64,000 bases of DNA, taken from Potamilus streckersoni (taxonomy: Eukaryota). A program made the position numbers and the translations under genes. Numbering within the stretch: the first letter of the stretch is position 1; each line of letters opens with the position of its first letter. The DNA lies in contig JAEAOA010001935.1 of the NCBI GenBank assembly GCA_016746295.1, positions 356,430 through 420,429 on the forward strand. Reading direction: 5' to 3'. Shown here piece by piece: positions 4,433-57,250 of the stretch. The notes under the pieces were generated by a model. It saw only the letters and a list, made by a program, of their open reading frames with translations, made no database searches and was not told the origin of the DNA.

Positions 4433-6050
4433 GTGTTAACCAATGTACTGTATATCAGAACTGAATAGTGCTAATTTATGTACTATATATCAGAACTGAA
4501 CAGTGTTAATTCATGTAAAGTATATCAGAATTGAAGTGTTAATTCATGTAAAGTATATCAGAACTAAATAGTGTTAATTCATGTATAATTCATGTACTGT
4601 ATATCAGAAATTAATAGTATTCATTCATGTACTGTATATCAGAATTGAAGTGTTAATACATGTACTGTATATCAGAACTGAAGTGTTAATTCATGTACTG
4701 TATATCAGAACTGAATAGTGTTAATTCATGTACTGTATATCAGAACTAAATAGTGTTAATTCATGTACTGTATATCAGAACTGAATAGTGTTAATTCATG
4801 TACTGTATATCAGAACTGAATAGTATTAGTTCATGTACTGTATATCAGAACTGAATAGTGCTAATTCATGTACTGTATATCAGAACTGAATAGTGTTAGT
4901 TCATGTACTGTATATCAGAACTGAATAGTGCTAGTTCATGTACTGTATATCAGAACTGAATAGTGCTAATTCATGTACTGTATATCAGAACTGAATAGTG
5001 CTAATTCATGTACTGTATATCAGAACTGAATAGTGCTAATTCATGTACTGTATATCGGAGCTGATTAGTGCTAATTCATGTACTGTATATCGGAGCTGAA
5101 TAGTGCTAATTCATGTACTGTATATCGGAGCTGATTAGTGCTAATTCATGTACTGTATATCGGAGCTGAATAGTGCTAATTCATGTACTGTATATCGGAG
5201 CTGAATAGTGCTAATTCATGTACTGTATATCAGAACTGAATAGTGTTAGTTCATGTACTGTATATCAGAACTGAATAGTGCTAGTTCATGTACTGTATAT
5301 CAGAACTGAATAGTGCTAATTCATGTACTGTATATCGGAGCTGAATAGTGCTAATTCATGTACTGTATATCGGAGCTGAATAGTGTTATTTCATGTACTG
5401 TATATCAGAACTGAATAGTGCTAATTCATGTACTGTATATCGGAGCTGAATAGTGCTAATTCATGTACTGTATATCGGAGCTGAATAGTGCTAATTCATG
5501 TACTGTATATCAGAACTGAATAGTGCTAATTCATGTACTGTATATCAGAACTGAATAGTGCTAATTCATGTACTGTATATCAGAACTGAATAGTGTTAGT
5601 TCATGTACTGTATATCAGAACTGAATAGTGCTAATTCATGTACTGTATATCGGAGCTGATTAGTGCTAATTCATGTACTGTATATCAGAACTGAATAGTG
5701 CTAATTCATGTACTGTATATCAGAATTGAATAGTGTTAATTCATGAACTGTATATCAGAACTGAATAGTGCTAATTCATGTACTGTATATCAGAACTAAA
5801 TAGTGTTAGTTCATGTACTGTATATCAGAACTGAATAGTGCTAATTCATGTACTGTATATCGAAGCTGAATAGTGCTAATTCATGTACTGTATATCGGAG
5901 CTGAATAGTGCTAATTCATGTACTGTATATCGGAGCTGATTAGTGCTAATTCATGTACTGTATATCGGAGCTGAATAGTGCTAATTCATGTACTGAATAT
6001 CGGAGCTGATTAGTGCTAATTCATGTACTGTATATCAAAGGTGATTAGTA
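4433..6050. repeat. 35-bp satellite, main block (~46 copies), with alternating monomer variants (cagaactgaatagtg vs cggagctgattagtg) suggesting higher-order structure
   Basis: Exact 35-bp period across 1.6 kb; two monomer classes alternate in blocks. Confidence 0.9.
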
Positions 6051-6639
6051 TTAACTCAGGCATATGATAAACAATGAATTATTTGCTACTTCATGGCAAA
6101 GAAACAAGTCTTTGACCAAACACTATAATTTATAATTGTATAGAAAAGTTCCATTGTACATTGATAATGAAACAGTCTTGTTTGTATGAAGCCCCTTCGA
6201 GATGATATTATCCTTAATTTTTTTTATATGTATAGTGATAGATTCTACTTGTGGGCACTAGGGCTGTCTAAAATCACGAAAACCCAACTTGGGTACCCGT
6301 TGCGAAATTTTTTTTATATGTATAGTGATAGATTCTACTTGTGGGCACTAGGGCTGTCTAAAATCACGAAAACCCAATCTGGGTACCCGTTGCGAAATTT
6401 AACAGGTACTCGGGTACCCGTTAGACTGTAGACCAAATAATTGTTATCTCCATTTCTTTAATATTTTGTATGTCGATATAGGCTAACTGTGTAATGCATT
6501 ACTGGGTCTAATGTGTCCACACCAATGTAGCTGTGAATGATCTGACCGAACACTATTAAATAATAAATTTATTTAGAATGACCTTTGTACAATCAGCCAC
6601 ATTAAATCCTTTAGAACATTCACCTTGTTAAAACAGACC

Positions 6640-7190
6640 ACAGCAGATTTGAATTACCCATGCATGCATGTAAAGCATGCCCCAGTTATGCCACTCAGTC
6701 ACATAAGTTTTATTATTTTGTAATTATCAGTATATGTTGACTAACTTTCAAAATTAGCAGAGCTAGACCACTAGAAAAACAAGAGTTGCTCAAAGATTAC
6801 TTTGAGGCATTACAAAGATTTCAAGGTGTCTAGGTGATAATTGTTTATAATATAAATTGTGGGATTTCATTGACAAGTGTGTTGGGAAATCAAAGGTATA
6901 CATCTGGATTACATTAAAAGAGCATGCAATGTACGGAGCATTAACGGGATAAGGGATAATGGGATACCAGTTTGTCCTTTTGCACAATGCCAATGGATTT
7001 TATTAATCCAAATAGATGCTCTGATGTATTGTTTATAGATATTAAGCAGGGATCTGGTTTCTAATTGAAGCCATAGCTGTCACACCTGTTTGAAGTGGTT
7101 GGCGAGTTCGGTGATTTTATATTATTTTTTACTGGTACCTGGGTTTTTCTATATGGTCGGGTACCCAATGACAGCCTTAGTGGGTACTGC
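6640..7190. repeat. Second copy of the ~600-bp interspersed module seen at 2955-3620
   Basis: See feature 2955-3620; upstream 6186-6431 holds a 2x 122-bp tandem duplication ending in ...gggtacccgttgcgaaatt. Confidence 0.6.
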
Positions 7191-7485
7191 CAGAATTATT
7201 ATATTATTTTACTTCAACAGTGCATTCTGATATATATTGCAATATATTCATAAATTCCTTAGAAATGCTGGGAAATTCCTTATAAATATTGGGAAATTAT
7301 TTAGTAAGTTCAAAATAATAATAAAGAGTGAACAAGAAGTTAATTTCTTAACACCTTAATTCCCTTTAAATCTCTTCAAGCTCCTGATTGAGCAGCATCC
7401 TTACAAGCATGAGTTATGTGAGACAGGTCACTATTTAATTTACATCATTTGAACTCTTGAATGCAATGTTAGTAAGCTTTTATGA

Positions 7486-7678
7486 TGAGATAATACAGTA
7501 AAACCTGTCTTGAGAGACCACTGTTATGAGAGATCACCTGCCTTGGGAGACCTGGTTCTCTATGTACAGATTTATTAATTGTATAGTGTTTAGACCTGTT
7601 ATGAGAGACCACATGTCATGAGACCATTATGTTTTGGCAAAAGAGGTGGTCTTTCAAAACAGGTTCCACTGTACTAGC
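7486..7678. mobile_element. MITE (~190 bp) with Tc1/mariner-type termini (TA|CAGTAAAACCTGTCTTGAGAGACC ... GGTCTTTCAAAACAGGTTCCACTG|TA)
   Basis: About 25-bp terminal inverted repeat; flanking TA on both sides; second copy at 25612-25785; partial copy near 38420-38470. Confidence 0.65.
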
Positions 7679-8685
7679 ATTGTTTATTTTTTATTGAAAC
7701 TGACAATTTCAGTTTGGAAACAAGTTGGAAAAACCTGAATTTCTTACAAAACAGGATTGCATACATAAATAAAATGAATATTTATTCGTCTGATTTTTGG
7801 ATTCAATAATTTATTTTCCTGGACACTCCACAAGTTGACTTTTTCATAAAATATTCTGAAAGATATTCAAGGAAATTAATTCTGGAATTATTTGGAAACA
7901 AAGACTGTGATTCAAGTGAGGAATTATTGTTATTCATATATTGGACTACATCTGACGTCATCGTTTTCCATATTTGTACATCATTTGGACTCGAACCTGG
8001 ATTCTTATAGGACTATTTAGTGATAGGACTTGTGTTTTTATTCTTAGAATCATATTTGGGTTATATTCACAGATTGTAAGTCCTTTATACAAACTTTTAT
8101 ATTGTTGTCTAGGGAAATAAATTGTTTTGTTAAAATTTACAAGGCTTGTTGGCTTTCATAGTTGAAGTCAATATTGAAGAGGTTTACTATGGTTAATTAT
8201 ACTATCATCCTACTGAAGTCAATATTGAGGAGGTTCACTATGGTTTATTATACTATCATCATATTGAAGTCAATATTATGATACATATCACCAGAGTACT
8301 AATGTGAGTAATCAATGTGTCAATGATATCAAAATCACAATAACCTGGACAACTGACCTTAAAATCAAATGGCCTATTCCCAACCTTAAATGCAAGCTTC
8401 CACAAAATTTGGTCAAGGTACTTCATCTAGAAATAAAGTTATTACGCAAAAACATTTTGCTTTCTTTAGTGAGTGACCATGACATTTTAAATGTTGACCC
8501 CAAAATCAAAATGCTTTCTATCCAAAGTACAAGTCAGCCTCAAATGTTATTGAAAGAACATAGCAAATACCTGAAATTTGTGTGCAAAAATCACTGGGCC
8601 ACCTTGAATATACTGTTTAAAAAAGTAAAAGGATTTGTTTTTAAAAATGTTAAAATATTTAATCAATAACATGAAAATTTCAAAG

Positions 8686-9312
8686 GATAAGCAGAGAATT
8701 ATCTTTCCAACAGATAGGGACTATATTTCCAGCAGAGAATTATCTTTCCAACAGATAGGGACTATATTTCCAGCAGAGAATTATCTTTCCAACAGATAGG
8801 GACTATATTTCCAGCAGAGAATTATCTTTCCAACAGATAGGGACTATATTTCCAGCAGAGAATTATCTTTCCAACAGATAGGGACTATATTTCCAGCAGA
8901 GAATTATCTTTCCAACAGATAGGGACTATATTTCCAGCAGAGAATTATCTTTCCAACAGATAGGGACTATATTTCCAGCAGAGAATTATCTTTCCAACAG
9001 ATAGGGACTATATTTCCAGCAGAGAATTATCTTTCCAACAGATAGGGACTATATTTCCAGCAGAGAATTATCTTTCCAACAGATAGGGACTATATTTCCA
9101 GCAGAGAATTATCTTTCCAACAGATAGGGACTATATTTCCAGCAGAGAATTATCTTTCCAACAGATAGGGACTATATTTCCAGCAGAGAATTATCTTTCC
9201 AACAGATAGGGACTATATTTCCAGCAGAGAATTATCTTTCCAACAGATAGGGACTATATTTCCAGCAGAGAATTATCTTTCCAACAGATAGGGACTATAT
9301 TTCCAGCAGAGA
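8686..9312. repeat. 41-bp minisatellite (cagcagagaattatctttccaacagatagggactatatttc), about 15 near-identical copies
   Basis: Exact 41-bp period; copies essentially identical. Confidence 0.9.
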
Positions 9313-9378
9313 GGTCAAACCGATGAATTCCATAATGGCATGAAATACTCTTGAAAAGCCATTTGCCTTAGGACTTAC

Positions 9379-9638
9379 CTATCTTCTCTGATTTTGATTT
9401 ATCATCTTCACTTTTCTCTTCACTCTCATCATCTGCATCTGTATTGTTATTATCATCACTTTCACAATCAATGGGGTCTTTATTTCCAGTGTCAGTATCC
9501 TTTGCCTTTGCATTAATGATATTACTGTTCCCATCCTCCTTTGTGTGGCTCTTGTTCTTCTGATGTTCTTCATTTAATTCTATAAATGCCAATTTTCTTC
9601 CACTATGTTCAATTTTACAATGTTTTATAAGTTTGTGC
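9379..9638 (-). CDS. Internal coding exon (minus strand) of the large zinc-finger/AT-hook gene: ...HKLIKHCKIEHSGRKLAFIELNEEHQKNKSHTKEDGNSNIINAKAKDTDTGNKDPIDCESDDNNNTDADDESEEKSEDDKSKSEKI
   Basis: Acceptor ttttttatag|G at 9639-9648 and donor ATAG|gtaagtcc at 9371-9378 (minus sense); open frame in between; begins with 1 nt that completes AG|G (Arg) with the 2-nt overhang of exon 16127-15950; ends in phase 1. Confidence 0.55.
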
Positions 9639-10547
9639 CTATAAAAAAATAAAACAAATATAAGTTCCTATATAAAATAAGCCATCAATGCAGAAATTTT
9701 TGGGGTTTTAGGAAATGAAAATAATTTAATGAAACGGCAAGATAAATTTTTTGCTGATCTTATCAAAATCCTGTGCAAACTGGTCTGCAATTCACTGCTG
9801 GTAATTTTGTGAAAGGCAAGGCTTTATGGGTACAACTGGTATAAGGTTATCCTTTCACAAGTTCATTTGCTATATCAGTGAAACAGTTCTGTAAATGAAA
9901 ATCTAATACCAGTCAAACTCTTAACACCTTCCAAAATATAATCCTCAATAAGTTGTCAAGACGGTAAGTTGTAGATTTCCACTGCACAGGCCGTCATCTT
10001 CTAAAAGTCAAATTTATTCATTAAGCTGACATCAGGCCTGATGTAATTCTTCAGTAAAATTTCTTTCACCTGCTGTGAAATTAATGAATTCCTGCCCAAA
10101 ATAAATAAGCTCTCATACTGTCAGGTTCGTAATTACCATTGGTAATTTGGTGAAGTATATTCAGCTCAACTGGTCACAGACCAGAAATGCTTTTGTTATG
10201 ATCTCAATTGTCCACTGGCAAAAATTGGTTATCACTTGTTATTAAGGTTTACTTTCATTTGGACAAATATTGAAAATTCATTTGTTCAACATGAAACTGA
10301 GAAGGAAAACTTTTTAAATTTTTCAATCACTTGCTAGATGGTGTGAATGCAGATTCAGGGCTGACAAGTGTTTCTCTGTAATGAAAAGAATCTTCTGTCA
10401 AGAATATTGCCCACAATGTTTGTGAAGTCCATACTTTCTGCCAAAAGTTTCTTTTCCATGTTTTGATGAAGCTCATACAAGCTTTCTGTTCTGACTCTTC
10501 TTTATTATTAAACACTTGCCGCAGACTTGTATTAGTTACATTATCAA

Positions 10548-31379: not shown

Positions 31380-33960
31380 TAATAATACTAATGAGGACTT
31401 TGTATAGCGCCTAATCTTTAGAAGCTCTAAGAGCTTTAAAAAATTTGACAATTAAAAAAAAACATATGATGATACAATTAAAAAAATAAATACAAACACC
31501 ATGAAATTAGAAAACATTCTGTAAATATTTAAGGTAAGGAAACATTATTATGTCTTTAAGTCTGTTCTTGCAGTTGAAATAGGTGCACTTTAATAGCACT
31601 CTTAAATGAGATCATTATGTCTTTGAGTCTAAGTTCAGTGGCCAATTCGTTCCATGTTGCTGGACCCTGGTATGCAAAAGAGCGTTGTCCTTATGATTTC
31701 ATTTTCATAATGGGAATAATGAAAATACAAGTGTCAGAAGAGGAGTGTAAGTATCTTGCAGGTGTGTACACATGGGTGAGGTCAGATAGGTACGTTGGAT
31801 TGGAGATCGTCAGTGAAACATAGCATAGAGAACATATTCTGTGTTTAATTCTGGATCATATGGATAGCCAGTACAGGGTACAGAGCAGTGGAAAGGCGTG
31901 CTCTGATCATGGTACTCTAAGTATGATCAAAGATGTGTTTTGAACTTTTTGAAGTTTCTGGAGTAGATATTGAGATGAACTAAACAGAATTGAGTTACAA
32001 TAGTCCAGTCCTAAAAGTACTAAGGAACACACAAGTGTTTTAGTGGCATCAACTGAAAGATACTTGTGAATGGAGCTGATGCGTCTCAGCTCAAGATATG
32101 CAGACTTGCATATGTTCATGACATGTTGATGCAATGAGAGAGTACTGTAAAGAGTGACACTGAGGTTTCGTACTGACTGCTTGAAGTTAATGTTGTTGTT
32201 GCTGACATTTATTGTCTGAGGTAAAGGATGTGAATGAGAAAGTCTTTCTGCTGTGATCAGGATGGCTTCAGTTTTATCATCATTCATCTGCAGCTTGTTA
32301 CATGTCATCCATGATTTCACATTGGAAATGCACCTCTCTATGTCTTGGATGGTAGCTTCAACTTCAGTTGGATGGCACTAGATGATGATCTATGACACTT
32401 GAAAGTGGTTGAGTGAAAAGAATAAAGAGAACAGGTCCAAGAACAGACCCTTGTGGAACACCACAGCATAGAACAACTGGGCTGGAGTGTTTACCATTTG
32501 CAGACACAATTTGTGTCCTGTTGACCAAGTAGGACTTGAACCATAGTAAGGCCATATCATGAATGCCAAATACATGCTGGAGATGGTGAAGTAATATATC
32601 ATGGTCTATTGTGTCAAATGCTGCAGACAAGTCAAGAAGAGTGAGGACTGTAATCTTTCTGCCATCCAAAGCAATGAAAAGGTCATTAACTGTTTTCAGA
32701 TGAGTAGTTTCAGTACTGTGGCAAGGGTGATATGCAGACTGTACATTGCTAAAAAGAAAGTTTGAATTCAGATGATATAAAAGATATAACAACTTTTTCT
32801 AAGATTTTTGACATGAATTGGAGATTAGAAACTGGGCAGCAGTTCTTTAAAATCCTTATAGTCAAGTGTTGGTTTCTTCAGCAGAGGCTTTACAATGGCA
32901 GTTGTATAAAATGATGGGAATTCCCCAGATTAGAGAGAGAGGTATTAATAACATTAGTTAGTAAAGGCAATATTGGATATCAGCACTCTAGCAGCAGCGA
33001 CGTTGAATCAATCCCTGAAAAAGATAACATGACTTTGGTGCACTATACATTACGATTGTACATACTAAATCCATAGAGATAGGTTCAAGTGGTTGCCGCT
33101 GATATTCTATATTGTAACTGTATGGTGGTGATGAGTCACTGAAATTGTGTTGTCAAGTTTATCTCTGATGGTTTGCACTTTGTCACAGAAGAAATTTGCA
33201 AACAGGTCCGGAAGGTCAACTAGAGAAAAGGGAGCTGGAAGAGGTGTACATTTGTTCCTTGACATTAGATTTTTTGTAATCTCAAATAGCTCTTTGCAGC
33301 TGGAACTTTCTGTGATCTTAGTACTGTAGTGGACTGACTTCGCTGCATGGACTATGTGACATTCTTCTTAGCGGCATCATAAATCTGCTTATGAATAGTG
33401 AGTCTGGTGGAAAGCCAAAGCCTCTCATCTTTACGATGGTCTCTTTTGGCAGTGTGAAGCTGATCATTAACACTGCTATACCATGGAGAACAATTCTGAT
33501 TTGCTATTCTGCATTTTGTTGCTGGGGCATGTTTGTCAAGCAATGAACACAGGCAGTTACTGAGTTGTTCTGCTGTAGGAGGTAAGCTAGTTGTTAGGTT
33601 TGCTTGGATGTCATACATTAGCTGGGTTCTGTTTATAATAAGGAGGTTTCTCTTAGTAGCGAATAAAGGTGGAGGATTAGGAACTAATACGTCAGATAGC
33701 ATATAATGCAGAGGTTATCTGATGCAAGGTTGTGGGACTACAGGGAGGACTGTAAAATATTATCATTAGGTCTGTAAAGAATCCAGTCTAAAATGTGACC
33801 ATGTAACCATGTTTATGGGTGGGTTCACTAACTGACTGACTGCGGTTGAAAATGTGAATGGAATCTAGGAATACGTGTGGCTGGTTCATACAGATAACCT
33901 TTAAGATACAAGGTTTTTTTTATACAGGTGACCTTTCATGATAGGTGGTTGCTTAACACA
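31321..33960 (-). mobile_element. 5'-truncated, frameshifted non-LTR retrotransposon (CR1/L2-like) carrying a reverse-transcriptase remnant; its 3' end is an (ATT)n tail (plus strand reads (AAT)n at 31321-31378)
   Basis: Minus ORFs 33352-33702 (..CSPWYSSVNDQLHTAKRDHRKDERLWLSTRL..), 32364-32792 (..QSAYHPCHSTETTHLKTVNDL...LLDLSAAFDTIDHDILL...GVPQGSVLGPVLF..) and 31907-32320 (MKSWMTCNKLQMNDDKTEAILI...). These are RT motifs 0-7 plus the thumb region, split over three frames. The 3' module matches 1252-1458 and 22955-23150. Confidence 0.7.
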
Positions 33961-50125: not shown

Positions 50126-51026
50126 ATGTTCCAAAAGAGAAAGCTTTCAAACCAAAACATTGAACTGAAGTATAAAATTTTGCTACAACTTGAAAAAGGC
50201 GAAAAGTGTGTTGATTTGGCAAAAAGTACAACATTCCATCAAACACTATTACCGGCTGGAAGAAAAATGCTGATAAAATCAAAACTACTTATGAACTTGG
50301 ACAATTTGGTCCCGATAGAAAGAAAATGCGTTCCGCAAAGTTCGATGATGTCGACGAGGCAACACTAAAATGGTTTAAAAACGTCCGTGCCGAAAATATC
50401 CCAGTAGACGGCCCTCGTATCCAGCAACAGGCTGAGAAATTTGCAAAAGACTTGGGACATGAAACATGGAAAGCATCACATGGCTGGTTAGATCATTTCA
50501 AACAGCGCAATAATATATGTTTTAAAACCGTGTGTGGAGAGAGAGCATCTGTTTCAGATGTGGCTGTTAAGGAATGGCATAAAGAAGTTTTGCCAAAAAT
50601 TTTAGACAAGTTTAAGCCATGCGATATATACAATGCTGATGAAATGGGGCTAGTTTGGCAATGTCTGCCTAACAAGACGATGGATTTCAAAGGAAACAAA
50701 TGCCATGGAGGAAAAAAATCCAAAGAGAGAGTAACTTTGCTTTTGGCCGGAAATATGGATGGAAGTGACAAGATCAAGCCATTAATAATAGGAAAATCAG
50801 AAAATCCAAGATGCTTCAAAAACCTGAATAGGTCTTCTCTCCCAGTTGACTATAAAAGCCAGTCAAATAGCTGGATGACAGGTGACATCTTTACCAGCTG
50901 GTTACGCAAGTTAGATCGCCACTTAGAGTTTGAAAAACGAAAGATCGCATTGATAATAGGCAACTGACGTGCTCACCCACATGTAGAAGGGTTACAAGCA
51001 ATCACAGTGTATTTTTTTCCTCCCAA
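50126..51026 (+). pseudogene. pogo/Tigger transposase, N-terminal two-thirds (CENP-B/psq HTH: MFQKRKLSNQNIELKYKILLQLEKGEKCVDLAKS..; HTH_Tnp_Tc5 and start of the DDE domain: ...ATLKWFKNVRAENIPVDGPRIQQQAEKFAKDLGHETWKASHGWLDHFKQRNNI...ERVTLLLAGNMDGSDKIKPLIIGKSENPRCFKN...RKIALIIGN*RAHPHVEGLQAITVYFFPPN), inactivated
   Basis: Frameshift near 50225 between ORFs 50081-50368 and 50326-50967; in-frame TGA at 50965-50967 inside the conserved LLLDNxxAHP motif; coding sequence cut at 51026/51027 by the hAT insertion. Confidence 0.75.
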
Positions 51027-51382
51027 CAGGGTTCCTGCAGTCTTAACCAAAACAAATTCCATGACTTTTCCAAAACTTTTCCAGAGACATTCAACAAAAC
51101 TCAAGGACCGCGCTCTCTTGCATTATCAAGTAAAATGAATATAAAGAATGACATCTTTCAAAGAAAATAACAAATAAGTTAACAACAAATATTTTTAATA
51201 TGTACATTTTAAATTTACCTGGGTTTGCACACATTGACTTCATGCAGTAATTCATGTTATAATCCAATTTTCAATGTAATTTGTATTCAAAAGTAAAAGA
51301 GAAACAATTCTATGTAGTTTATGTATGTGTTCATATTTACAATATTAACAAAACATGTCACTTTCCAGTTGCTTTCTTGTAT

Positions 51383-53707
51383 TTAGAGAGAAGCCAACTT
51401 TTTCTGCTCTATCTCCTTTTCAATGTCCTTTAGAGACTCTTGTTTCACTTTTGCAGTCTTTCGGAGAGAATTGGACGCAGTTAACAGGCTTAGGTTATTG
51501 TCCTTTTCAGCTTGTTCAGCATTTTCATCTGCTAATTTGAGCAATTGCTGGATGTCATCTATTAATCTAATTCTTTTATTTAAGATGTCACCCAGCTCAA
51601 GATCTGCTTTTCGTTTTCTGCTCCTCTCACACTCATCCCTCTTTTTCTTTTCCTCATCCAAGTACTGTCTGTATGCATGTCTAGCATTTGAAGCATAGGT
51701 TAACATTTCTTTACTAATATTTACATTTTCAATGCCTCCTACACTCCGAATACCATCAATAATGATTCTTCTTGAAATGAGAGACAACTGCTTTTGGTTA
51801 TCTCTTATGGCTTCTTTGTTCATGGATAATCCTCGTTCAACATCTGCCTGGCCATGAGACAGAGTTAGAAGATGTTTTACAACTGGCCACAAGACAGCAT
51901 ATTCCTTTTTGTTTGCCATCAAAGAATGAAAAAATGAATCTAAGCGGTCTTTCTGTCTGGAGAACTGAGCAAATTTCACAGAGTCTTCCAATTTCAAACA
52001 ATTTTCCAAAAAGGATTTGTAGTTTTTAGCCAGGGCATCACATTGGTTTGGATCTATTCTTCCATTGTTGACTAGAATTTTGACCAGTGAGTGGAATGAC
52101 TGAATGCTTGTCTTTATATCCTTCATCATCATCTCTGGGTTTAAGCATGTCATATGTCTTACAAGTGCAAAAGTCACTGGTGATTTTGTCAGCAGTTTTG
52201 TGACAGCAGCTTGGAGGAATTTCCTGCAATCAATACGGAATGACAAAATGTCCCTATCTGTCAATTTCCCTGATTTTTTTAAGTCTGCAATCACAGTCAT
52301 TGTCACAAAGCCAATTTCAATCATTGCAGGGTCTTTAAGATGTTTGCAATTTGTTAGATCCAATTTTATGAGCTTTGATGCCTCTGTGATAAGGTCCAGA
52401 TGATCTTGAGCTACAAATCGCTCCATAAGACCCCTGATCATTTTGAAAATGTCTTCGGCAAGGAAAGGCAGCAATGGAGTGTCTCCTTGAAATTCCTGTA
52501 AAAATGGCTCAAACTCTCTAGCCACTGAAAGGAAAAACTGTGCTTGAGGAATGAAGAGATGAGACTTAATCACTTCCTTTAGACTCTCAAATGATTTTAA
52601 TTTTGGGTGCTTTTTAAGCGACTCAATATATGTTGCTAGGTATGGAAGGAGGGATATGACTTTCTCTACAACTGTGATATTCTCAAGCCACCTGTGCTTA
52701 CAGAATTTTGGTGGCAGCTCCTTGTTACCAGATACTTTTTGATAGTCCTCTATTCTGGCTGGAGAATCTTTAAAGAAGTAATAGAGATTGCTTTGTGTCT
52801 CCTCCAGATTCCACTCTGTGGCAGTGCAACCATGCCTGAAAGCATTATGAATTAAATGCAGGCTGCAAGATTCTGTTGGCAACAACGACTTTCCAGGATT
52901 TAAACGATTAATCTCTGCATTCAACATGTCAAAGGTTTTCCAGTTAACATTAGGTCCATCCATTGAAATTTGGAGGAGGTTCCTGGTGCCAAGATCTTGG
53001 ATGATTGGACACAACTTGCCAAAAAGATCATCTGCAGTGGCATGTCCCAAAAACTCAGATGTTAAAAATCTTGTCTGCACTCTTTCTGCACCCTGTTCCC
53101 AAAATCTGACATGAATGTCACATTGCTTTTGGCGCAATTGTTTATTCAAACTTTCATCGAACTGCAAGACATATCCATCACACTTGCGTATGCTATCTTT
53201 TAAGGTTGATGTAAAGTATGGGGATAGGCCATGAATAGCAATATAACTTGTTTTGTCATAACCGCAAGTGAATTTGTTTGCAATTGCACTGTCTGGAAAC
53301 ATTAGTGAAAAAACTTGTGAAATTTCCTCATTGGAATTAAAGGAGCTGTGTGTATTCACTGTCCTTGATGTCCACAAAATTTCTGCCTTTAATACATCAT
53401 TTGATGATGTATATGACGTTAATGTTGGGGCAGGCTTTGGCGTACCTTTAGGTAATGGTGAGGCTAAAGGTGAAATAAAACCAAAGAGTGTGTTGTTCTG
53501 AGCAGATTTCATTATTTTACAATTCTGCACATGCTTCTTGCTGGTGGAATGACTTTTGAGGGCAGCTTCTCCCATATTTGCAATATCTATAATTTTGCTA
53601 CAAGCTCTGCATTTAGCAGTCCTTGGGTCTGAAGCATTCTTCTCCGCCCATTTTTCATAGCTTGGGTTAGTCAGCCATCTGTTATTGAATGTGCACATGC
53701 CAGGCAT
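51383..53707 (-). CDS. hAT-family transposase, 774 aa, intronless and intact: N-terminal CxxC...H...H zinc finger (KCRACSKIIDIANMGEAALKSHSTSKKH), DUF4371-type core (..LQFDESLNKQLRQKQCDIHVRFWEQGAERVQTRFLTSEFLGHATADDLFGKLCPIIQDLGTRNLLQISMDGPNVNWK..), C-terminal hAT dimerisation motif (..LWPVVKHLLTLSHGQADVERGLSMNKEAI..) and a coiled-coil tail
   Basis: Single 2,325-nt ORF on the minus strand with no stops; motif pattern FDES…/…VERxxS characteristic of hAT (Ac/Buster/Charlie-like) transposases; lies centrally within an element with TIRs. Confidence 0.8.
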   Translation of the reverse strand: MPGMCTFNNRWLTNPSYEKWAEKNASDPRTAKCRACSKIIDIANMGEAALKSHSTSKKHVQNCKIMKSAQNNTLFGFISPLASPLPKGTPKPAPTLTSYTSSNDVLKAEILWTSRTVNTHSSFNSNEEISQVFSLMFPDSAIANKFTCGYDKTSYIAIHGLSPYFTSTLKDSIRKCDGYVLQFDESLNKQLRQKQCDIHVRFWEQGAERVQTRFLTSEFLGHATADDLFGKLCPIIQDLGTRNLLQISMDGPNVNWKTFDMLNAEINRLNPGKSLLPTESCSLHLIHNAFRHGCTATEWNLEETQSNLYYFFKDSPARIEDYQKVSGNKELPPKFCKHRWLENITVVEKVISLLPYLATYIESLKKHPKLKSFESLKEVIKSHLFIPQAQFFLSVAREFEPFLQEFQGDTPLLPFLAEDIFKMIRGLMERFVAQDHLDLITEASKLIKLDLTNCKHLKDPAMIEIGFVTMTVIADLKKSGKLTDRDILSFRIDCRKFLQAAVTKLLTKSPVTFALVRHMTCLNPEMMMKDIKTSIQSFHSLVKILVNNGRIDPNQCDALAKNYKSFLENCLKLEDSVKFAQFSRQKDRLDSFFHSLMANKKEYAVLWPVVKHLLTLSHGQADVERGLSMNKEAIRDNQKQLSLISRRIIIDGIRSVGGIENVNISKEMLTYASNARHAYRQYLDEEKKKRDECERSRKRKADLELGDILNKRIRLIDDIQQLLKLADENAEQAEKDNNLSLLTASNSLRKTAKVKQESLKDIEKEIEQKKLASL

Positions 53708-54514
53708 GTTGGACTAAACCTAAAGCAATAAAAAATGAAAGATTTTCAGATTTAGCTGTCATTATGGGATATTGTGTATTTTATTATGTATTCAGAGTTT
53801 TCTAACGGTCCAATGTTCATTAAGTAATTATTTTTATAATCTTTTGGCCAGACTTAGAATCTAAGATTTAGTTAATATAATATTATGTAGTCTTGGTTAT
53901 TTGAAATTAAAATACAATTTTCAGACAATGACAATTCTTTTCTTTAACTTTAACAAAAATTCATTAAGTATCCTAGTAACAGCAACACTGAAAATGCCAT
54001 CAAAGTTTACCAGATACAGAAAAATGTTTGATTAAAGTTAAACTATAATGGTAGTAAATATGTTTTATCCTAACATGGCAACCCTCTTGAAAAATGGAAG
54101 TCAAATTTCCCACACTGTAATATTACTGGAATTTTGACTGAAGTCTTCTTGCAATTTTTTTTTTATTTTGAATTCAAATATTTTTCTTTCTTCAATACAC
54201 GATCTATTCTAGTATTTATTTACTATAAATATTTATTTTTATTGGGGTTTTGGAAAATCGGGTGAATTTAATTGGGAGACAAAGACAGGTCTAATATTAA
54301 AACAGTTCTCTTAAATTTTATTCAGTATGGTTGGCTGGTCAACTAAAAACAGCTTCCGATTGAAAACTATAGTTTTTTAATATTCTGAAATGAATGTAAA
54401 GTAACTGCCCAAAATAAGAATATGAAATTTACAATAACAATTATAATCAGGTCGTACCGTACCATCTGCCATAATAAAAGAATGAATATGCCATATGAGA
54501 TGTTACGACAGACC

Positions 54515-54960
54515 CGAAAAAAAAGAGAAATATAAACGAAACCAAAATTAGTGTTTACCATGTGCATTAGATCGAGAAAATAAGTGACTTTCTCGGAAGA
54601 AATTAACTTTGTTTTGATATATCGTGAAGTGTTAATTGCTCAAAATGGTGCAGCAAACAACATTAATTTCCCTATGGAACTACAAAGTAAATCACGTGAG
54701 ATATACTGTTAGGGAACTTACTCTTGTTATACAAAATTAAGAGATAAATATAAATGAAACCAAATTAGTACTTACCTTGTACCTTAGATTGAAGAAATAA
54801 CAGACATTTTGGGAAGAAATTGGCTTCCTCTTGATAGACCTTCAAGCGGTTTTTGCTCAAAGCGGCGCGGCTGTTCATTTGAATTTTCCAATCGAACTAC
54901 ACCGGAAATCACGTGATACTACTGTTAGGGTCACTTACTCTTGTTATATTTAATGAAACC
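54515..54960. repeat. Subterminal ~220-bp tandem repeat (2 diverged copies) in the 5' non-coding region of the hAT element (upstream of the transposase ORF)
   Basis: 54515-54735 vs 54736-54960 share gaga(a/t)aaatataaa(c/t)gaaaccaaa(a)ttagt..ttacc.tg..cttagat.ga(g/a)aaataa...ttt.ggaagaaatt..ct...ttgata.a.c.t.aag.g......gctcaaa..g..g..c..tt.a..ttcc.at.gaactaca..g.aaatcacgtga.a.tactgttaggg.acttactcttgttata; shorter 25-bp direct repeats aaattccatgacttttccaaaactt at 51052-51076 and 55043-55067. Confidence 0.7.
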
Positions 54961-55169
54961 ATTTATCGATCGTAATTTTATCGTGTTTTATTTAATCGGT
55001 ACTCGTTGAAATTTGGAGTAATCAATTTTTTAACTCCATTGTCAGAAATTCCATGACTTTTCCAAAACTTAGCAAGGTTTTGACAAATTCCATAAATTTT
55101 CAAGGCCCTTGAAATTTATTTTCTAATTTCCAAAACTTTTCCAGGATTCCATGACCCGCGGGAACCCTG

Positions 55170-55777
55170 TCCCAATGCTACCAGTAAACTTCAGCCACGC
55201 GACCAAGGAATAATTCAGGCTTTTAAAATCCAATATCGGAAAGCTTTAGTTTGCAATTATTTGCTTGCAGTTGAGGAAAAGCGATCATATAAACCAACTC
55301 TGCTAGACGCCATCATGTATGCCCGTGCAGCTTGGAACAGTGTATCGCCGAAAACCATTAAAAACTGCTGGTTCCATTGTATTCTTCCGGAAATTTCTGA
55401 TGAAGAATTTCACCAGCAGTGTTTAATTGCACAAGAAATTAAAGAGCCTCAAACAGAAATAGGTCTTGAAGCGATGGCTGATGAGATTGCGGACTCCATA
55501 GGCATTTCATTTTCACGTGGATGATAATGCCAATGCCTATGGTGAACTTACTGATGAGGAAATAATTCAATCGGTGACAATGAAGCAGATACGATCATGC
55601 AAGCAAGATGATGATGATGATTAGCCTATCACTATCCCAAGCTACAGTGAAATGGCTGAATGCATTCAAAAAATGAAATTGTTTGTGGCGAGTGTCGACG
55701 GTGCCGAGCATATGTATGAAAACGTAAGTGCTTTTGAATCGTTCGTTACAAATCAGCACCGGAGTAAACAAATGTAG
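55170..55777 (+). pseudogene. pogo/Tigger transposase, C-terminal third (..ATSKLQPRDQGIIQAFKIQYRKALVCNYLLAVEEKRSYKPTLLDAIMYARAAWNSVSPKTIKNCWFHCILPEI..., then after a frameshift ..DDNANAYGELTDEEIIQSV...PITIPSYSEMAECIQKMKLFVASVDGAEHMYENVSAFESFV)
   Basis: Continues the pogo frame interrupted at 51026; conserved LQPLDQGII / DAI..A..AW..V...I.NCF motifs; at least one further frameshift near 55500-55525; stop TAG at 55774-55776. Confidence 0.7.
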
Positions 55778-57199
55778 ACTGATATTACTTCATATTTTCT
55801 ACAAAAATAATGCAGTGCACATTATGATATGTTTATGTACTTGTGTGTTTTATAGATGTATAGATTCAAAATGAAAAAAGTATTCATTTTTTATTCATAT
55901 ATAGTATGCGTTTATTGTACATGTACGTGTAGGTAATTTTACCATATATTTTTGTATTTCCACTACATTATGTTCAGTTTATAATTCCTAGATATTTTGA
56001 AAATATTGCTGACATGTTTGGCTATTTTGTCATAAAATGCAATACAATAAATCGTCATGATATTAGGTGCAAATGGAACAATTTCATCACCTGAATGAAT
56101 ATTCAGCCGACCAGCACTTTTCCGTCTGCACATTGATTATTAATGTGTACATGTACATAATATTTCATTACTTGTATCTCCTTGATTGTAGTTTCTTGTA
56201 TATGTACTTCGGAACATAATTCATATCTTAAATGTACCTTAAGAAATAAAAGGGAAATGATAAAATACACATGTAGCTAACATCTAAGATTCTGTGTTTT
56301 CGTAAAATAAAGTTACATTGTAATTTGTGCACACTCTTGTCTTTGTGAATTTCTGAATATTTTATGTAGTGAACATGATATATTCTTAATAAACTAATCA
56401 ATTAAGCTACTTTTACAAATCAAAAATAGAAAGAATATGAAATAAACATGTGACTACTGCCAAAACAGACCAAAATTGTTCCTGAAAATCTATCGCTTTT
56501 GCTGACTATTTATTGTACAATTTCTGTGAGATTGACGTTAAAAAGTTGCATTTCGTCGAATTAAGCGGGTCCACATGTTACTTCGGACCGAAACTTATGC
56601 CCGACATAACCGGGTTATCGACTTAACAGAGGTCGAGATAAACGGGTAAAAAATAGCATAACAGAAAAGAATTTTTTCGGGACCGGACTCAAACGCTCGA
56701 CATAAGCGGGTTGTCGAGATAACCGAGGTCAAGATAAGTGGGTTTGGCTGTATGTAAAACATAATTGCAATTTGCGACATTGGCAAAGCCCAGCGCAATC
56801 ACTGTTATTGATTTCATTTCCGGTTATTGCCGTATAAATATTGCCTGCGAACTCAAAATCAAGAGACTTGGACAATATGTTATTTGCAAATTTAGACAAG
56901 TGTTTTGTAGTTAAACGTTAAAATGTTGAATATTTCAATGAGATTCAGAACTGTGCTAAAGTTGCTATAACTGATAGTTCGGATGCGACCGTAGCCAAGT
57001 GTAAGAAAGTACGTGATTTCTGGCTATGTGGGGACTGCAACTTTTGCTGGTGGGACTCTAATTTTTACCAAATTAGGAGTCCATTTTCCTAGTTTTAAAA
57101 TCCTAGTGAGACCTCTGGTTCTGAATATATTTCAACCTGTACTCTGTTGGCAAAATCACAGGGCACACCAATGGAAAAAATTAACCCATACCATTTTTT

Positions 57200-57203
57200 C
57201 CCA

Positions 57204-57250
<47 letters not shown>
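57200..57250. repeat. (TA)n microsatellite
   Basis: Direct read. Confidence 0.95.

What the first reader, a model, noticed from the sequence alone, without database searches (positions are those of the whole stretch)
51027..55169. Candidate autonomous, possibly active hAT element with an atypically short target duplication
A 2,325-nt uninterrupted transposase ORF carries a zinc finger, a DUF4371-like core and a C-terminal hAT dimerisation motif (LWP…L…ADVERGLS). It lies between perfect 9-bp terminal inverted repeats (CAGGGTTCC) with subterminal ~220-bp and 25-bp repeats, which is the architecture of a young autonomous element. The flanking direct duplication is only TCCCAA (6 bp; 5 bp if the TIR is read as ACAGGGTTCC) rather than the canonical 8 bp of hAT elements. 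This suggests an unusual lineage, a staggered-cut variant, or ambiguity at the TIR tip.
Basis: partly seen in the sequence, partly recalled or inferred. Interest (0 to 1): 0.75.

Follow-up and report, generated by a model that had tools for sequence, protein, structure and literature searches.

The report
hAT6-type transposon inside dead Tigger
This is a complete cut-and-paste "jumping gene" of the hAT superfamily that landed inside an older, dead jumping gene; its short 6-base insertion footprint is real but typical of an already described lineage (hAT6), so it is a clean but ordinary example.

Summary
The features are real. A 4,143-bp element (51027-55169) has CAGGGTTCC termini and an uninterrupted 774-aa ORF on the minus strand. 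It sits inside a dead Tigger/pogo transposase gene.

An uninterrupted 94-97% identical copy of that Tigger carries a single TCCCAA where the window has TCCCAA-element-TCCCAA. The 6-bp target duplication is therefore proven, and the "TIR-tip ambiguity" reading is excluded.

Relatives in a sea cucumber, a tick and a goby share the CAGGGTTC tip and 6-bp duplications. Another branch, with five identical copies in the fish Eleginops, makes 5 bp.

hAT groups with 6-bp and 5-bp duplications (hAT6, hAT5) were described in Repbase in 2007, so this is a new member of a known kind.

Activity of this copy is unproven. dN/dS against a 91% relative is 0.28, but this copy has private changes at conserved sites, including invariant G279E.

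The parts
51021..51026 (.). Left copy of the 6-bp target-site duplication, TCCCAA
   Evidence: Sequence. The uninterrupted Tigger copy L012 has one TCCCAA (L012 657-662) that aligns to both window copies.
51027..51040 (+). Terminal inverted repeat at the gene-downstream (3') end: CAGGGTTCC perfect, CAGGGTTCCTGCAG imperfect at 12 of 14
   Evidence: The homologous contig L001 loses similarity exactly at ...GGAACCCTG. The same CAGGGTTC tip is found in sea cucumber, urchin, tick and fish relatives.
51054..51078 (+). Subterminal 25-mer AAATTCCATGACTTTTCCAAAACTT, containing two TTCCADRA motifs; presumed transposase-binding sites
   Evidence: An exact second copy in the same orientation lies at 55046-55070. 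Motif census. Conserved in relatives.
51383..53707 (-). Transposase ORF of 774 aa. It has a BED-like CCHH finger (C33, C36, H53, H59), an RNase-H-like DDE core (D184, D250, E624) with CxxH (C281, H284) and R339-W340, an all-alpha insertion domain, and a C-terminal coiled-coil hairpin (about residues 675-773).
51386..51685 (-). Part of the ORF that encodes the C-terminal antiparallel coiled-coil hairpin (residues about 675-773), absent from Hermes
53708..55160 (-). 1.45-kb non-coding gene-upstream region (promoter / 5' UTR inferred)
   Evidence: No long ORF. About 92% identical to the relative L010 over its whole length.
54521..54960 (-). Tandem pair of about 217-bp units at about 71-75% identity; most units carry a TCACGTGA palindrome
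   Evidence: Both units are present and orthologous in L010, so the duplication predates the split of the two lineages.
55046..55155 (+). Cluster of six TTCCADRA subterminal motifs, all on the + strand. It includes the second 25-mer (55046-55070) and the palindrome TCAAGG-C-CCTTGA (55100-55112).
   Evidence: The same arrangement is found at the 5' ends of relatives from four phyla.
55156..55169 (-). Terminal inverted repeat at the gene-upstream (5') end, ...CCGCGGGAACCCTG
55170..55175 (.). Right copy of the 6-bp target-site duplication, TCCCAA
50326..51026 (+). Left half of the host element: a dead Tigger/pogo transposase gene (HTH_Tnp_Tc5 plus the first half of DDE_1)
   Evidence: Pfam. 97% DNA identity to L012.
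55176..56269 (+). Right half of the host Tigger/pogo copy
   Evidence: Joining the flanks minus one TCCCAA restores the frame ...YFFPPNATSKLQP.... It also gives a full-length single DDE_1 match 1-177 and a gap-free 94% alignment to P0124.

Best explanation
Window 51027-55169 is one structurally complete, autonomous-type DNA transposon of the hAT superfamily. It belongs to a metazoan-wide lineage that makes 6-bp (in some branches 5-bp) rather than 8-bp target duplications. This corresponds to the group called hAT6 in Repbase. The element inserted into the DDE domain of an older, already or subsequently dead Tigger/pogo element.

Inferred mechanism, by analogy with Hermes:
1. The N-terminal BED-like zinc finger and the core bind the asymmetric arrays of TTCCATGA-type subterminal motifs and the CAGGGTTC tips.
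2. The DDE site (D184, D250, E624), with R339-W340, cuts the element out through hairpins on the flanking DNA.
3. The two element 3'-OH ends attack the target strands 6 bp apart.
4. Gap repair produces the TCCCAA duplication.

Shown here: the boundaries, the 6-bp duplication, the hAT fold, the conserved catalytic residues, the lineage-wide short duplications, and purifying selection on the ORF.

Inferred only: the chemistry, the binding sites, and identity with the Repbase hAT6 families.

Whether this particular copy can still move is open. I put it at about 0.3.
For: - Boundaries and duplication: the TIR is unique in the window. The paralogous empty site L012 has a single TCCCAA. Reading frame, full DDE_1 and a gap-free 94% alignment are restored after removing the element plus 6 bp.
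- Catalytic residues: D184, D250, R339, W340 and E624 are invariant in 36 sequences. They correspond in order and spacing to Hermes D180, D248, R318, W319 and E572, listed as essential in PMC6027215. That correspondence is read from order and spacing, not from a residue-level superposition.
- TIR tip: CAGGG fits the hAT consensus (T/C)A(A/G)NG.
- Lineage property: relatives with the same CAGGGTTC tip have 6-bp duplications in Holothuria (CATGAG), the tick Haemaphysalis (AGCAAG), the goby Knipowitschia (TTGATA) and metagenome contig L018.
- Literature: hAT6 is defined by 6-bp duplications, with families from S. purpuratus and Nematostella (PMC12730594). An S. purpuratus homologue of this protein exists (P0026 / L004).
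- Selection: dN/dS is 0.28 and dS is 0.14 against four contigs encoding the 91%-identical protein.
- Family mobility: five copies, 100% identical over 4,855 bp, lie on five chromosomes of Eleginops.
Against: - No sequence model of hAT (Pfam Dimer_Tnp_hAT, DUF4371) detects the protein or any of 35 relatives. A profile search of PDB sequences does not find Hermes either. The superfamily assignment therefore rests on a predicted structure and on motifs.
- Model confidence is low (<50) for residues 621-637, which include the catalytic E624.
- Duplication length is not uniform in the family. It is 5 bp in the Eleginops branch and in L033. It is ambiguous (5 or 6) in the urchin, a stick insect and L090/L091.
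- Against activity of this copy: only one copy in 64 kb, and the exact protein is absent from the public collection.
- Private substitutions fall at conserved sites: G279E (34 of 34 relatives have G, two residues before the CxxH cysteine), L305Q and F627L (three residues after the catalytic E).
Confidence: 0.85

Rival explanations
1. The element is a dead relic. The ORF is intact only because too little time has passed for a stop codon to arise, and the copy can no longer transpose on its own. It might still be moved in trans by a functional relative.
For: - Three private amino-acid changes fall at columns conserved in at least 85% of 34 distant relatives. These include G279E at an invariant glycine next to the CxxH motif, and F627L next to the catalytic E624. 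The 91% relative P0001 has none of its own.
- Of the polarised changes, the window branch has 23 derived and P0001 has 16. Six of the window's changes, against one to three of P0001's, hit positions shared by at least 20 of 34 relatives.
- No second copy in the window, and the exact protein is not on record.
Against: - The ORF is full length and matches the family from Met1 to the last helix.
- All five Hermes-type essential residues are intact.
- TIRs and the duplication are perfect.
- dN/dS of 0.28 shows the lineage was under selection until recently.
- The excess of derived changes is not significant (p = 0.34).
Confidence: 0.55
2. The element belongs to a different DNA-transposon superfamily that makes 6-bp duplications (IS3EU or Dada), or to another DDE superfamily with an insertion domain (P, Kolobok, MULE, Transib). 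The hAT-like motifs would then be convergent.
For: - Pfam hAT models fail.
- IS3EU elements make 6-bp duplications (PMC12730594). That Dada elements make 6-7 bp is from my own knowledge.
Against: - Hermes is the only strong structural match.
- The CAGGG tip fits the hAT consensus, whereas the IS3EU families in that paper end in TAYGG with TIRs longer than 30 bp.
Confidence: 0.04
3. The ORF is a domesticated, host-co-opted hAT-derived gene rather than a transposon.
For: - The ORF is long and intact, with dN/dS below 1.
- The many NCBI homologues listed are named only 'uncharacterized protein', 'hypothetical protein' or 'unnamed protein product', as predicted genes are.
Against: - It is bounded by TIRs and a target duplication and lies inside another transposon.
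- Relatives keep the same ends and occur as multiple identical copies on different chromosomes.
- Short-read contigs of the close relative end at or near the element ends or at the repeated 25-mer, as expected for a repeat.
Confidence: 0.02
4. The true duplication is the canonical 8 bp and has decayed, or the element tips are misplaced by a base or two.
For: This is a single insertion, and the base next to each tip (A on the left, T on the right) would extend the inverted repeat to 10 bp.
Against: - The empty site shows exactly six duplicated bases.
- The base outside CAGGG...CCCTG differs in L001 and in every relative.
- Four independent relatives have perfect 6-bp repeats directly abutting the same tips.
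Confidence: 0.01

Closest known systems
hAT6 group of hAT transposons (Repbase: hAT6-1_SP, hAT6-2_SP, hAT6-1_NV; Kapitonov & Jurka, Repbase Reports 2007, 7:1192, as cited in PMC12730594)
   Same: A hAT-type transposase with 6-bp target duplications in animal hosts. A homologue of the window protein with the same CAGGGTTC tip exists in S. purpuratus, one of the two species from which hAT6 families are named.
   Different: Direct sequence comparison was not possible. The protein family recovered here also contains branches that make 5-bp duplications, so it may be broader than, or only overlap with, Repbase hAT6.
Hermes (Musca domestica) and the classical hobo/Ac/Tam3 hAT elements
   Different: - 6-bp rather than 8-bp duplication.
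- About 12-14% sequence identity in the structural alignments.
- Invisible to Pfam Dimer_Tnp_hAT.
- An extra conserved coiled-coil hairpin of about 100 residues lies within the 150 residues that follow the catalytic E. That Hermes ends about 40 residues after E572 is from my own knowledge.
hAT5 group (Repbase; 5-bp duplications; Kapitonov & Jurka 2007, 7:1188)
   Same: Short-duplication animal hATs. The published tree places hAT5 and hAT6 in the same larger animal lineage with Blackjack. Branches of the present family (Eleginops, L033) make 5 bp.
   Different: The window copy and its nearest relatives make 6 bp. Whether the 5-bp branches seen here are Repbase hAT5 is unknown.
IS3EU and Dada superfamilies (other eukaryotic DNA transposons with 6-bp duplications)
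   Same: Duplication length only.
   Different: The transposase fold and the termini differ. IS3EU has TAYGG tips and TIRs longer than 30 bp. Dada targets small-RNA genes (my own knowledge). Here the fold is Hermes-like and the target is a Tigger ORF.

Membership tests
hAT superfamily | RNase-H-like DDE catalytic core interrupted by a large all-alpha insertion domain (Hermes-type fold) | tested here: met
   [not shown]
hAT superfamily | Essential residues equivalent to Hermes D180, D248, R318, W319 and E572, plus the CxxH motif | tested here: met
   D184, D250, R339, W340 and E624 are invariant, H284 is invariant and C281 nearly invariant, in 36 aligned family members, and all are present in the window protein. 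The residue list comes from PMC6027215. The one-to-one correspondence is inferred from order and spacing, not from a printed superposition.
hAT superfamily | C-terminal hAT dimerisation domain recognisable by Pfam PF05699 (and, for the Buster/ZMYM-like branch, DUF4371) | tested here: not met
   No hit at E<=1 in the window protein or in any of 35 homologues. The ...LSHGQAxVERGFS... motif and the fold match suggest the domain exists in divergent form.
hAT superfamily | N-terminal BED-type zinc finger | tested here: inconclusive
   The CxxC-x16-H-x5-H pattern is conserved. Pfam zf-BED gives only sub-threshold hits in 12 of 36 members, best E 0.018.
hAT superfamily | Short TIRs beginning (T/C)A(A/G)NG | tested here: met
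   The tip is CAGGGTTCC, with 9 perfect and 12 of 14 matches. The consensus comes from PMC6027215.
hAT superfamily | 8-bp target-site duplication (classical definition) | tested here: not met
   6 bp, proven by the empty site. The literature accepts 5-, 6- and 7-bp hAT groups, so this does not exclude membership.
hAT6 group (Repbase) | 6-bp target-site duplication | tested here: met
   Window TCCCAA; relatives CATGAG, AGCAAG, TTGATA and GTTAGA.
hAT6 group (Repbase) | Transposase clusters with hAT6-1_SP, hAT6-2_SP and hAT6-1_NV | not testable with these tools
The only indirect support is an S. purpuratus homologue with the same tip and the names in the published tree.
IS3EU superfamily | IS3/integrase-like transposase, TIRs longer than 30 bp ending TAYGG..CCRTA, 6-bp duplication | tested here: not met
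   Only the duplication length agrees. The tips are CAGGG and the fold is Hermes-like.
Active autonomous element (functional status) | Several near-identical copies, insertion polymorphism or transcripts in the source genome | not testable with these tools
   The source genome is not available. There is one copy in the window and the exact protein is not on record. The nearest relatives are 92-94% identical in DNA.

The most novel reading that the evidence does not exclude
Within one transposase family that keeps almost the same termini (CAGGGT.C plus TCATGGAA-type subterminal arrays), different branches make 6-bp or 5-bp target duplications. All members carry a conserved C-terminal coiled-coil hairpin of about 100 residues that Hermes lacks.

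If this hairpin, or a small number of substitutions, sets the spacing of the two active sites in the transpososome, the family would be a natural series for finding what determines target-cut stagger in hAT transposases. The family is also a very large group without any Pfam model: more than 10,000 50%-identity clusters.
Probability: 0.15. Interest if true: 0.5.

Novelty: new member of a known kind. Interest (0 to 1): 0.22.

Why it matters
For genome annotation, this is a textbook nested insertion with a proven empty site, and it is a useful seed for a repeat library.

It also shows that a very large metazoan transposase family is invisible to Pfam's hAT models: 10,525 cluster representatives at E<=1e-3. 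Its members are routinely deposited as 'uncharacterized protein'. Such genes can therefore be mistaken for novel host genes.

Mechanistically, the coexistence of 5-bp and 6-bp branches with near-identical ends could help explain how hAT transposases set their target stagger. That idea is a lead, not a result.

Tried and rejected
- Pfam scans of the protein and of 36 family members, expecting hAT or DUF4371: nothing.
- Sequence and profile searches against PDB sequences: only coiled-coil and zinc-finger noise.
- Exact-protein look-up for other copies of the window ORF: none.
- The AFDB Foldseek library was unavailable.
- The bacterial promoter/terminator scan of the upstream region is not meaningful for a eukaryotic element and showed no excess.
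- Rfam search of the whole window: no family.
- Searches for further copies or MITE-like derivatives in the window by tip and subterminal pattern: none.
- Literature search for the tip sequence CAGGGTTC gave only unrelated primers. A search for '6 bp TSD' plus hAT listed ten papers, of which I opened only the top one, where the phrase referred to a Polinton and not to hAT.
- Metagenome contigs as a source of many insertion sites: 11 of 15 TIR pairs had no flanking repeat. I attribute this to chimeric short-read assembly of repeats and did not use them as evidence.
- Considered and rejected: an 8-bp decayed duplication, a 10-bp TIR with a 4-bp duplication, a domesticated gene, and the IS3EU, Dada, P, Kolobok and MULE superfamilies.
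Full report
**What is in the sequence**

Reading 50800-55400 and listing ORFs confirms a 2,325-nt uninterrupted ORF on the minus strand (51383-53707, 774 aa). CAGGGTTCC lies at 51027-51035 and its reverse complement at 55161-55169. These are the only two occurrences of the 9-mer in the 64-kb window; 0.15 are expected and 1 of 100 shuffles reached two. The inverted repeat continues imperfectly to 12 of 14 positions. TCCCAA directly abuts both tips (51021-51026 and 55170-55175).

- The 25-mer AAATTCCATGACTTTTCCAAAACTT occurs at both ends in the same orientation (51054 and 55046, both on the + strand).
- The '~220-bp repeat' is a single tandem pair of about 217-bp units at roughly 71-75% identity. 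It lies only on the gene-upstream side (54521-54960).

An 8-mer, TTCCADRA, occurs twice in the first 100 bp and six times in the last 140 bp of the element. All eight are on the + strand and none on the - strand, against a background of 0.15 per kb per strand. The two ends are therefore asymmetric.

**The insertion site and the duplication length**

The flanks encode a Tigger/pogo transposase. The 213-aa ORF ending at 50967 has HTH_Tnp_Tc5 and the first half of DDE_1. Removing the element and one TCCCAA has three effects.
- It restores the frame ...YFFPPNATSKLQPRDQGII....
- It gives a single full-length DDE_1 match, profile positions 1-177.
- It gives a gap-free 94% alignment to an intact homologue, P0124.

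The DNA encoding P0124 (contig L012) aligns to window 50365-51026 at 97% identity and to window 55170-56269 at 94%. The two alignments overlap on exactly six bases of L012 (657-662, TCCCAA). This is a paralogous empty site, so the insertion duplicated six bases.

It is contradicted because the base outside CAGGG...CCCTG differs in the closest relative and in all distant relatives.

The host Tigger copy is dead. It reads IIGN* where P0124 has IIDNC, and QPRDQG where P0124 has QPLDQG.

**What the protein is**

Pfam finds no transposase family in the 774-aa protein, only a sub-threshold CEP104 zinc-finger hit. None of 36 aligned family members hits Dimer_Tnp_hAT or DUF4371, even at E<=1; 12 of 36 give sub-threshold zf-BED hits. 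Sequence and profile searches against PDB sequences find nothing relevant.

Other evidence nevertheless supports hAT.
- **Conserved motifs.** The alignment of 36 members at 33-91% identity shows invariant D184-E185 (FDES), D250 (SMDGP), H284 in CxxH, R339-W340-x-E342 (HRWLEN) and E624-R625 (VERGFS). The finger ligands are also conserved (H53 and H59 invariant, C33 and C36 nearly so). All are present in the window protein.
- **Correspondence to Hermes.** In order and spacing these residues correspond to Hermes D180, D248, R318, W319 and E572, listed as the essential residues in PMC6027215.
- **Predicted structure.** An AlphaFold model built on the alignment is confident: mean pLDDT 85.1 and pTM 0.70. 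It is weak at residues 71-100 and at 621-637, which includes E624.
- **Foldseek.** Against the PDB, the top 12 hits are all Hermes transposase (E 1e-9 to 1e-6, probability 1.0). The next hit is at E 0.1.

I conclude that this is a hAT-superfamily transposase too divergent for the Pfam models. It carries an extra, conserved antiparallel coiled-coil hairpin of about 100 residues (about 675-773) after the catalytic glutamate.

**The family and its ends**

The word-indexed search found 390 homologues at E<=1e-3. Echinoderms, fishes, a hemichordate, molluscs, ticks, a stick insect and a spider are among them. None has a precomputed Pfam domain. The exhaustive phmmer search counts 10,525 50%-identity cluster representatives at E<=1e-3 and 1,113 at E<=1e-30.

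I fetched the genomic context of members in chromosome-level assemblies and located their ends.

| Locus | Organism | Protein identity to window | Tip | Duplication |
|---|---|---|---|---|
| L003 | Holothuria leucospilota (sea cucumber) | 44% | CAGGGTTCC | CATGAG, 6 bp |
| L006 | Haemaphysalis longicornis (tick) | 39% | CAGGGTTCG | AGCAAG, 6 bp |
| L007 | Knipowitschia caucasica (goby) | 41% | perfect 14-bp TIR | TTGATA, 6 bp |
| L004 | S. purpuratus (urchin) | 39-40% | CAGGGTTC | ATGAA, 5 bp; 6 bp if the first C is shared |
| L008 | Bacillus rossius (stick insect) | 36% | CAGGGTTC at the 5' end; 3' tip mutated | TAAAA, 5 bp; 6 bp if the terminal G is shared |

Five copies of a 34%-identical member in Eleginops maclovinus are 100% identical over 4,855 bp and lie on five chromosomes. 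Their duplications are GAGTT, TATTT, ATTAGT, AAAAA and TTAAT, which is 5 bp.

On a neighbour-joining tree the window protein groups with the Holothuria 6-bp element. The 5-bp members sit on other branches.

The ends are strikingly conserved across phyla.
- At the gene-upstream end: CAGGGTTC, four to six bases, then repeats of GTCATGGAA (TCCTTGAA in arthropods), then a TCAAGG/CCTTGA-type palindrome at about 60 bp.
- At the other end, the same motif appears in the opposite orientation relative to the tip.

Short-read metagenome contigs were not usable. Eleven of 15 TIR pairs there have no flanking repeat. I attribute this to chimeric assembly of multicopy repeats but did not test it.

**Relation to what is known**

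PMC12730594 states that hAT elements usually make 8-bp duplications. It also states that families with 5-bp and 6-bp duplications were characterised and named hAT5 and hAT6 (Kapitonov & Jurka, Repbase Reports 2007), and that both fall in an animal lineage with Blackjack. Its tree file contains hAT6-1_NV, hAT6-1_SP and hAT6-2_SP.

Three observations fit hAT6: a hAT fold, 6-bp duplications, and an S. purpuratus family member. I could not compare sequences with Repbase, so membership in that named group is an inference, which I put at about 0.7. Membership in the hAT superfamily with a lineage-typical 6-bp duplication is well supported.

**Is this copy young or active?**

Evidence for:
- The ORF is intact and collinear with the family from the first to the last residue.
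- All essential residues are present.
- The tips and the duplication are perfect.
- Against four contigs (L001, L002, L010, L011, from one GenBank assembly and three sequencing runs) that encode 91%-identical 776-aa proteins, dN is 0.040, dS is 0.142 and dN/dS is 0.28. The lineage was therefore under purifying selection.

Evidence against or neutral:
- Those relatives are only 92-94% identical in DNA.
- There is no other copy in the window.
- The exact protein is not in the public collection.
- The window protein has three private substitutions at columns conserved in at least 85% of 34 distant relatives: G279E (34 of 34 G, next to CxxH), L305Q and F627L (next to E624). P0001 has none of its own.
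- Polarised by the distant relatives, the window branch has 23 derived changes and P0001 has 16 (p = 0.34). The window has more hits at strongly conserved positions.

Activity is therefore possible but not shown. I put transposition competence of this copy at about 0.3. Mobility of the family as such is shown by the identical Eleginops copies.

**Mechanism, and which steps are inferred**

Shown here:
- the element boundaries;
- the six-base duplication;
- the Hermes-like fold;
- the conserved DDE, RW and CxxH residues;
- the asymmetric arrays of subterminal motifs, conserved with the protein family.

Inferred from established knowledge of Hermes and other hAT elements:
- The BED-like finger and core bind the subterminal motifs and tips.
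- The DDE site excises the element through hairpins on the flanking DNA, with the conserved tryptophan stabilising the flipped base.
- The two 3'-OH ends attack the target six bases apart, and repair yields the duplication.

Why the stagger is 6 bp (or 5 bp) rather than 8 bp is unknown. The family-specific C-terminal coiled-coil hairpin is one candidate for altering the oligomer geometry. That is speculation.

**Verdict**

Its short duplication is genuine but characteristic of an already described kind (hAT6). I rate it a new member of a known kind, of low to moderate interest.

The useful by-products are:
- a proven empty site;
- the demonstration that this very large family escapes Pfam's hAT models;
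- the 5-bp/6-bp variation among branches with near-identical ends.

Noticed in passing
window 50326-51026 and 55176-56269 (+): The host of the insertion is a dead Tigger/pogo copy. Compared with the 94%-identical intact protein P0124, it reads IIGN* where P0124 has IIDNC, and QPRDQG where P0124 has QPLDQG. Upstream of 50326 the CENP-B-like N-terminus is broken by several stops.
   Followed up: partly
window 31907-33702 (-): Fragmented non-LTR retrotransposon. The ORF at 32364-32792 hits Pfam RVT_1 (E 1.3e-15). The neighbouring ORFs look like parts of the same broken reverse-transcriptase gene.
   Followed up: partly
L093-L097 (Eleginops maclovinus GCA_036324505.1, five chromosomes), element 5609-10462 in each locus: Five copies of a 34%-identical family member are 100% identical over 4,855 bp. 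Their duplications are 5 bp in four cases and 6 bp, probably 5 plus a chance match, in the fifth. This looks like a currently or very recently active element.
   Followed up: partly
Family-wide (alignment A2): A metazoan transposase family with 10,525 50%-identity cluster representatives at E<=1e-3 has no Pfam model. The NCBI homologues listed carry only uninformative names ('uncharacterized', 'hypothetical' or 'unnamed protein product').
   Followed up: partly
[not shown]
   Followed up: partly
5' and 3' ends of L003, L004, L006, L007, L008 and the window element: Termini are conserved across phyla at only 35-45% protein identity. The shared pattern is CAGGGTTC, a short spacer, GTCATGGAA/TCCTTGAA repeats and a TCAAGG/CCTTGA palindrome about 60 bp in. 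This implies either strong co-constraint of the ends with the transposase or horizontal spread.
   Followed up: no
L014-L092 (metagenome contigs): Eleven of 15 CAGGG..CCCTG TIR pairs in short-read metagenome contigs have no flanking direct repeat, whereas all ten insertions in chromosome-level assemblies do. This is probably chimeric assembly of repeat flanks, but it was not tested.
   Followed up: no
L001 (GCA_013573275.1), L010, L011: L001 stops two bases beyond the CAGGG tip at its 3' end. L010 (at both ends) and L011 (at its 3' end) stop in or next to the repeated 25-mer. This is the behaviour expected when an assembler meets a multicopy repeat or an internal repeat.
   Followed up: partly
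window 54521-54960: Three of the four aligned ~217-bp upstream tandem units (both window units and one of the two L010 units) contain a TCACGTGA palindrome (E-box-like CACGTG). Both units are retained in the 92%-identical relative L010, so they may be promoter or regulatory sequence.
   Followed up: no
window 57205-57248: A (TA)22 microsatellite lies about 1 kb downstream of the detected Tigger homology.
   Followed up: no
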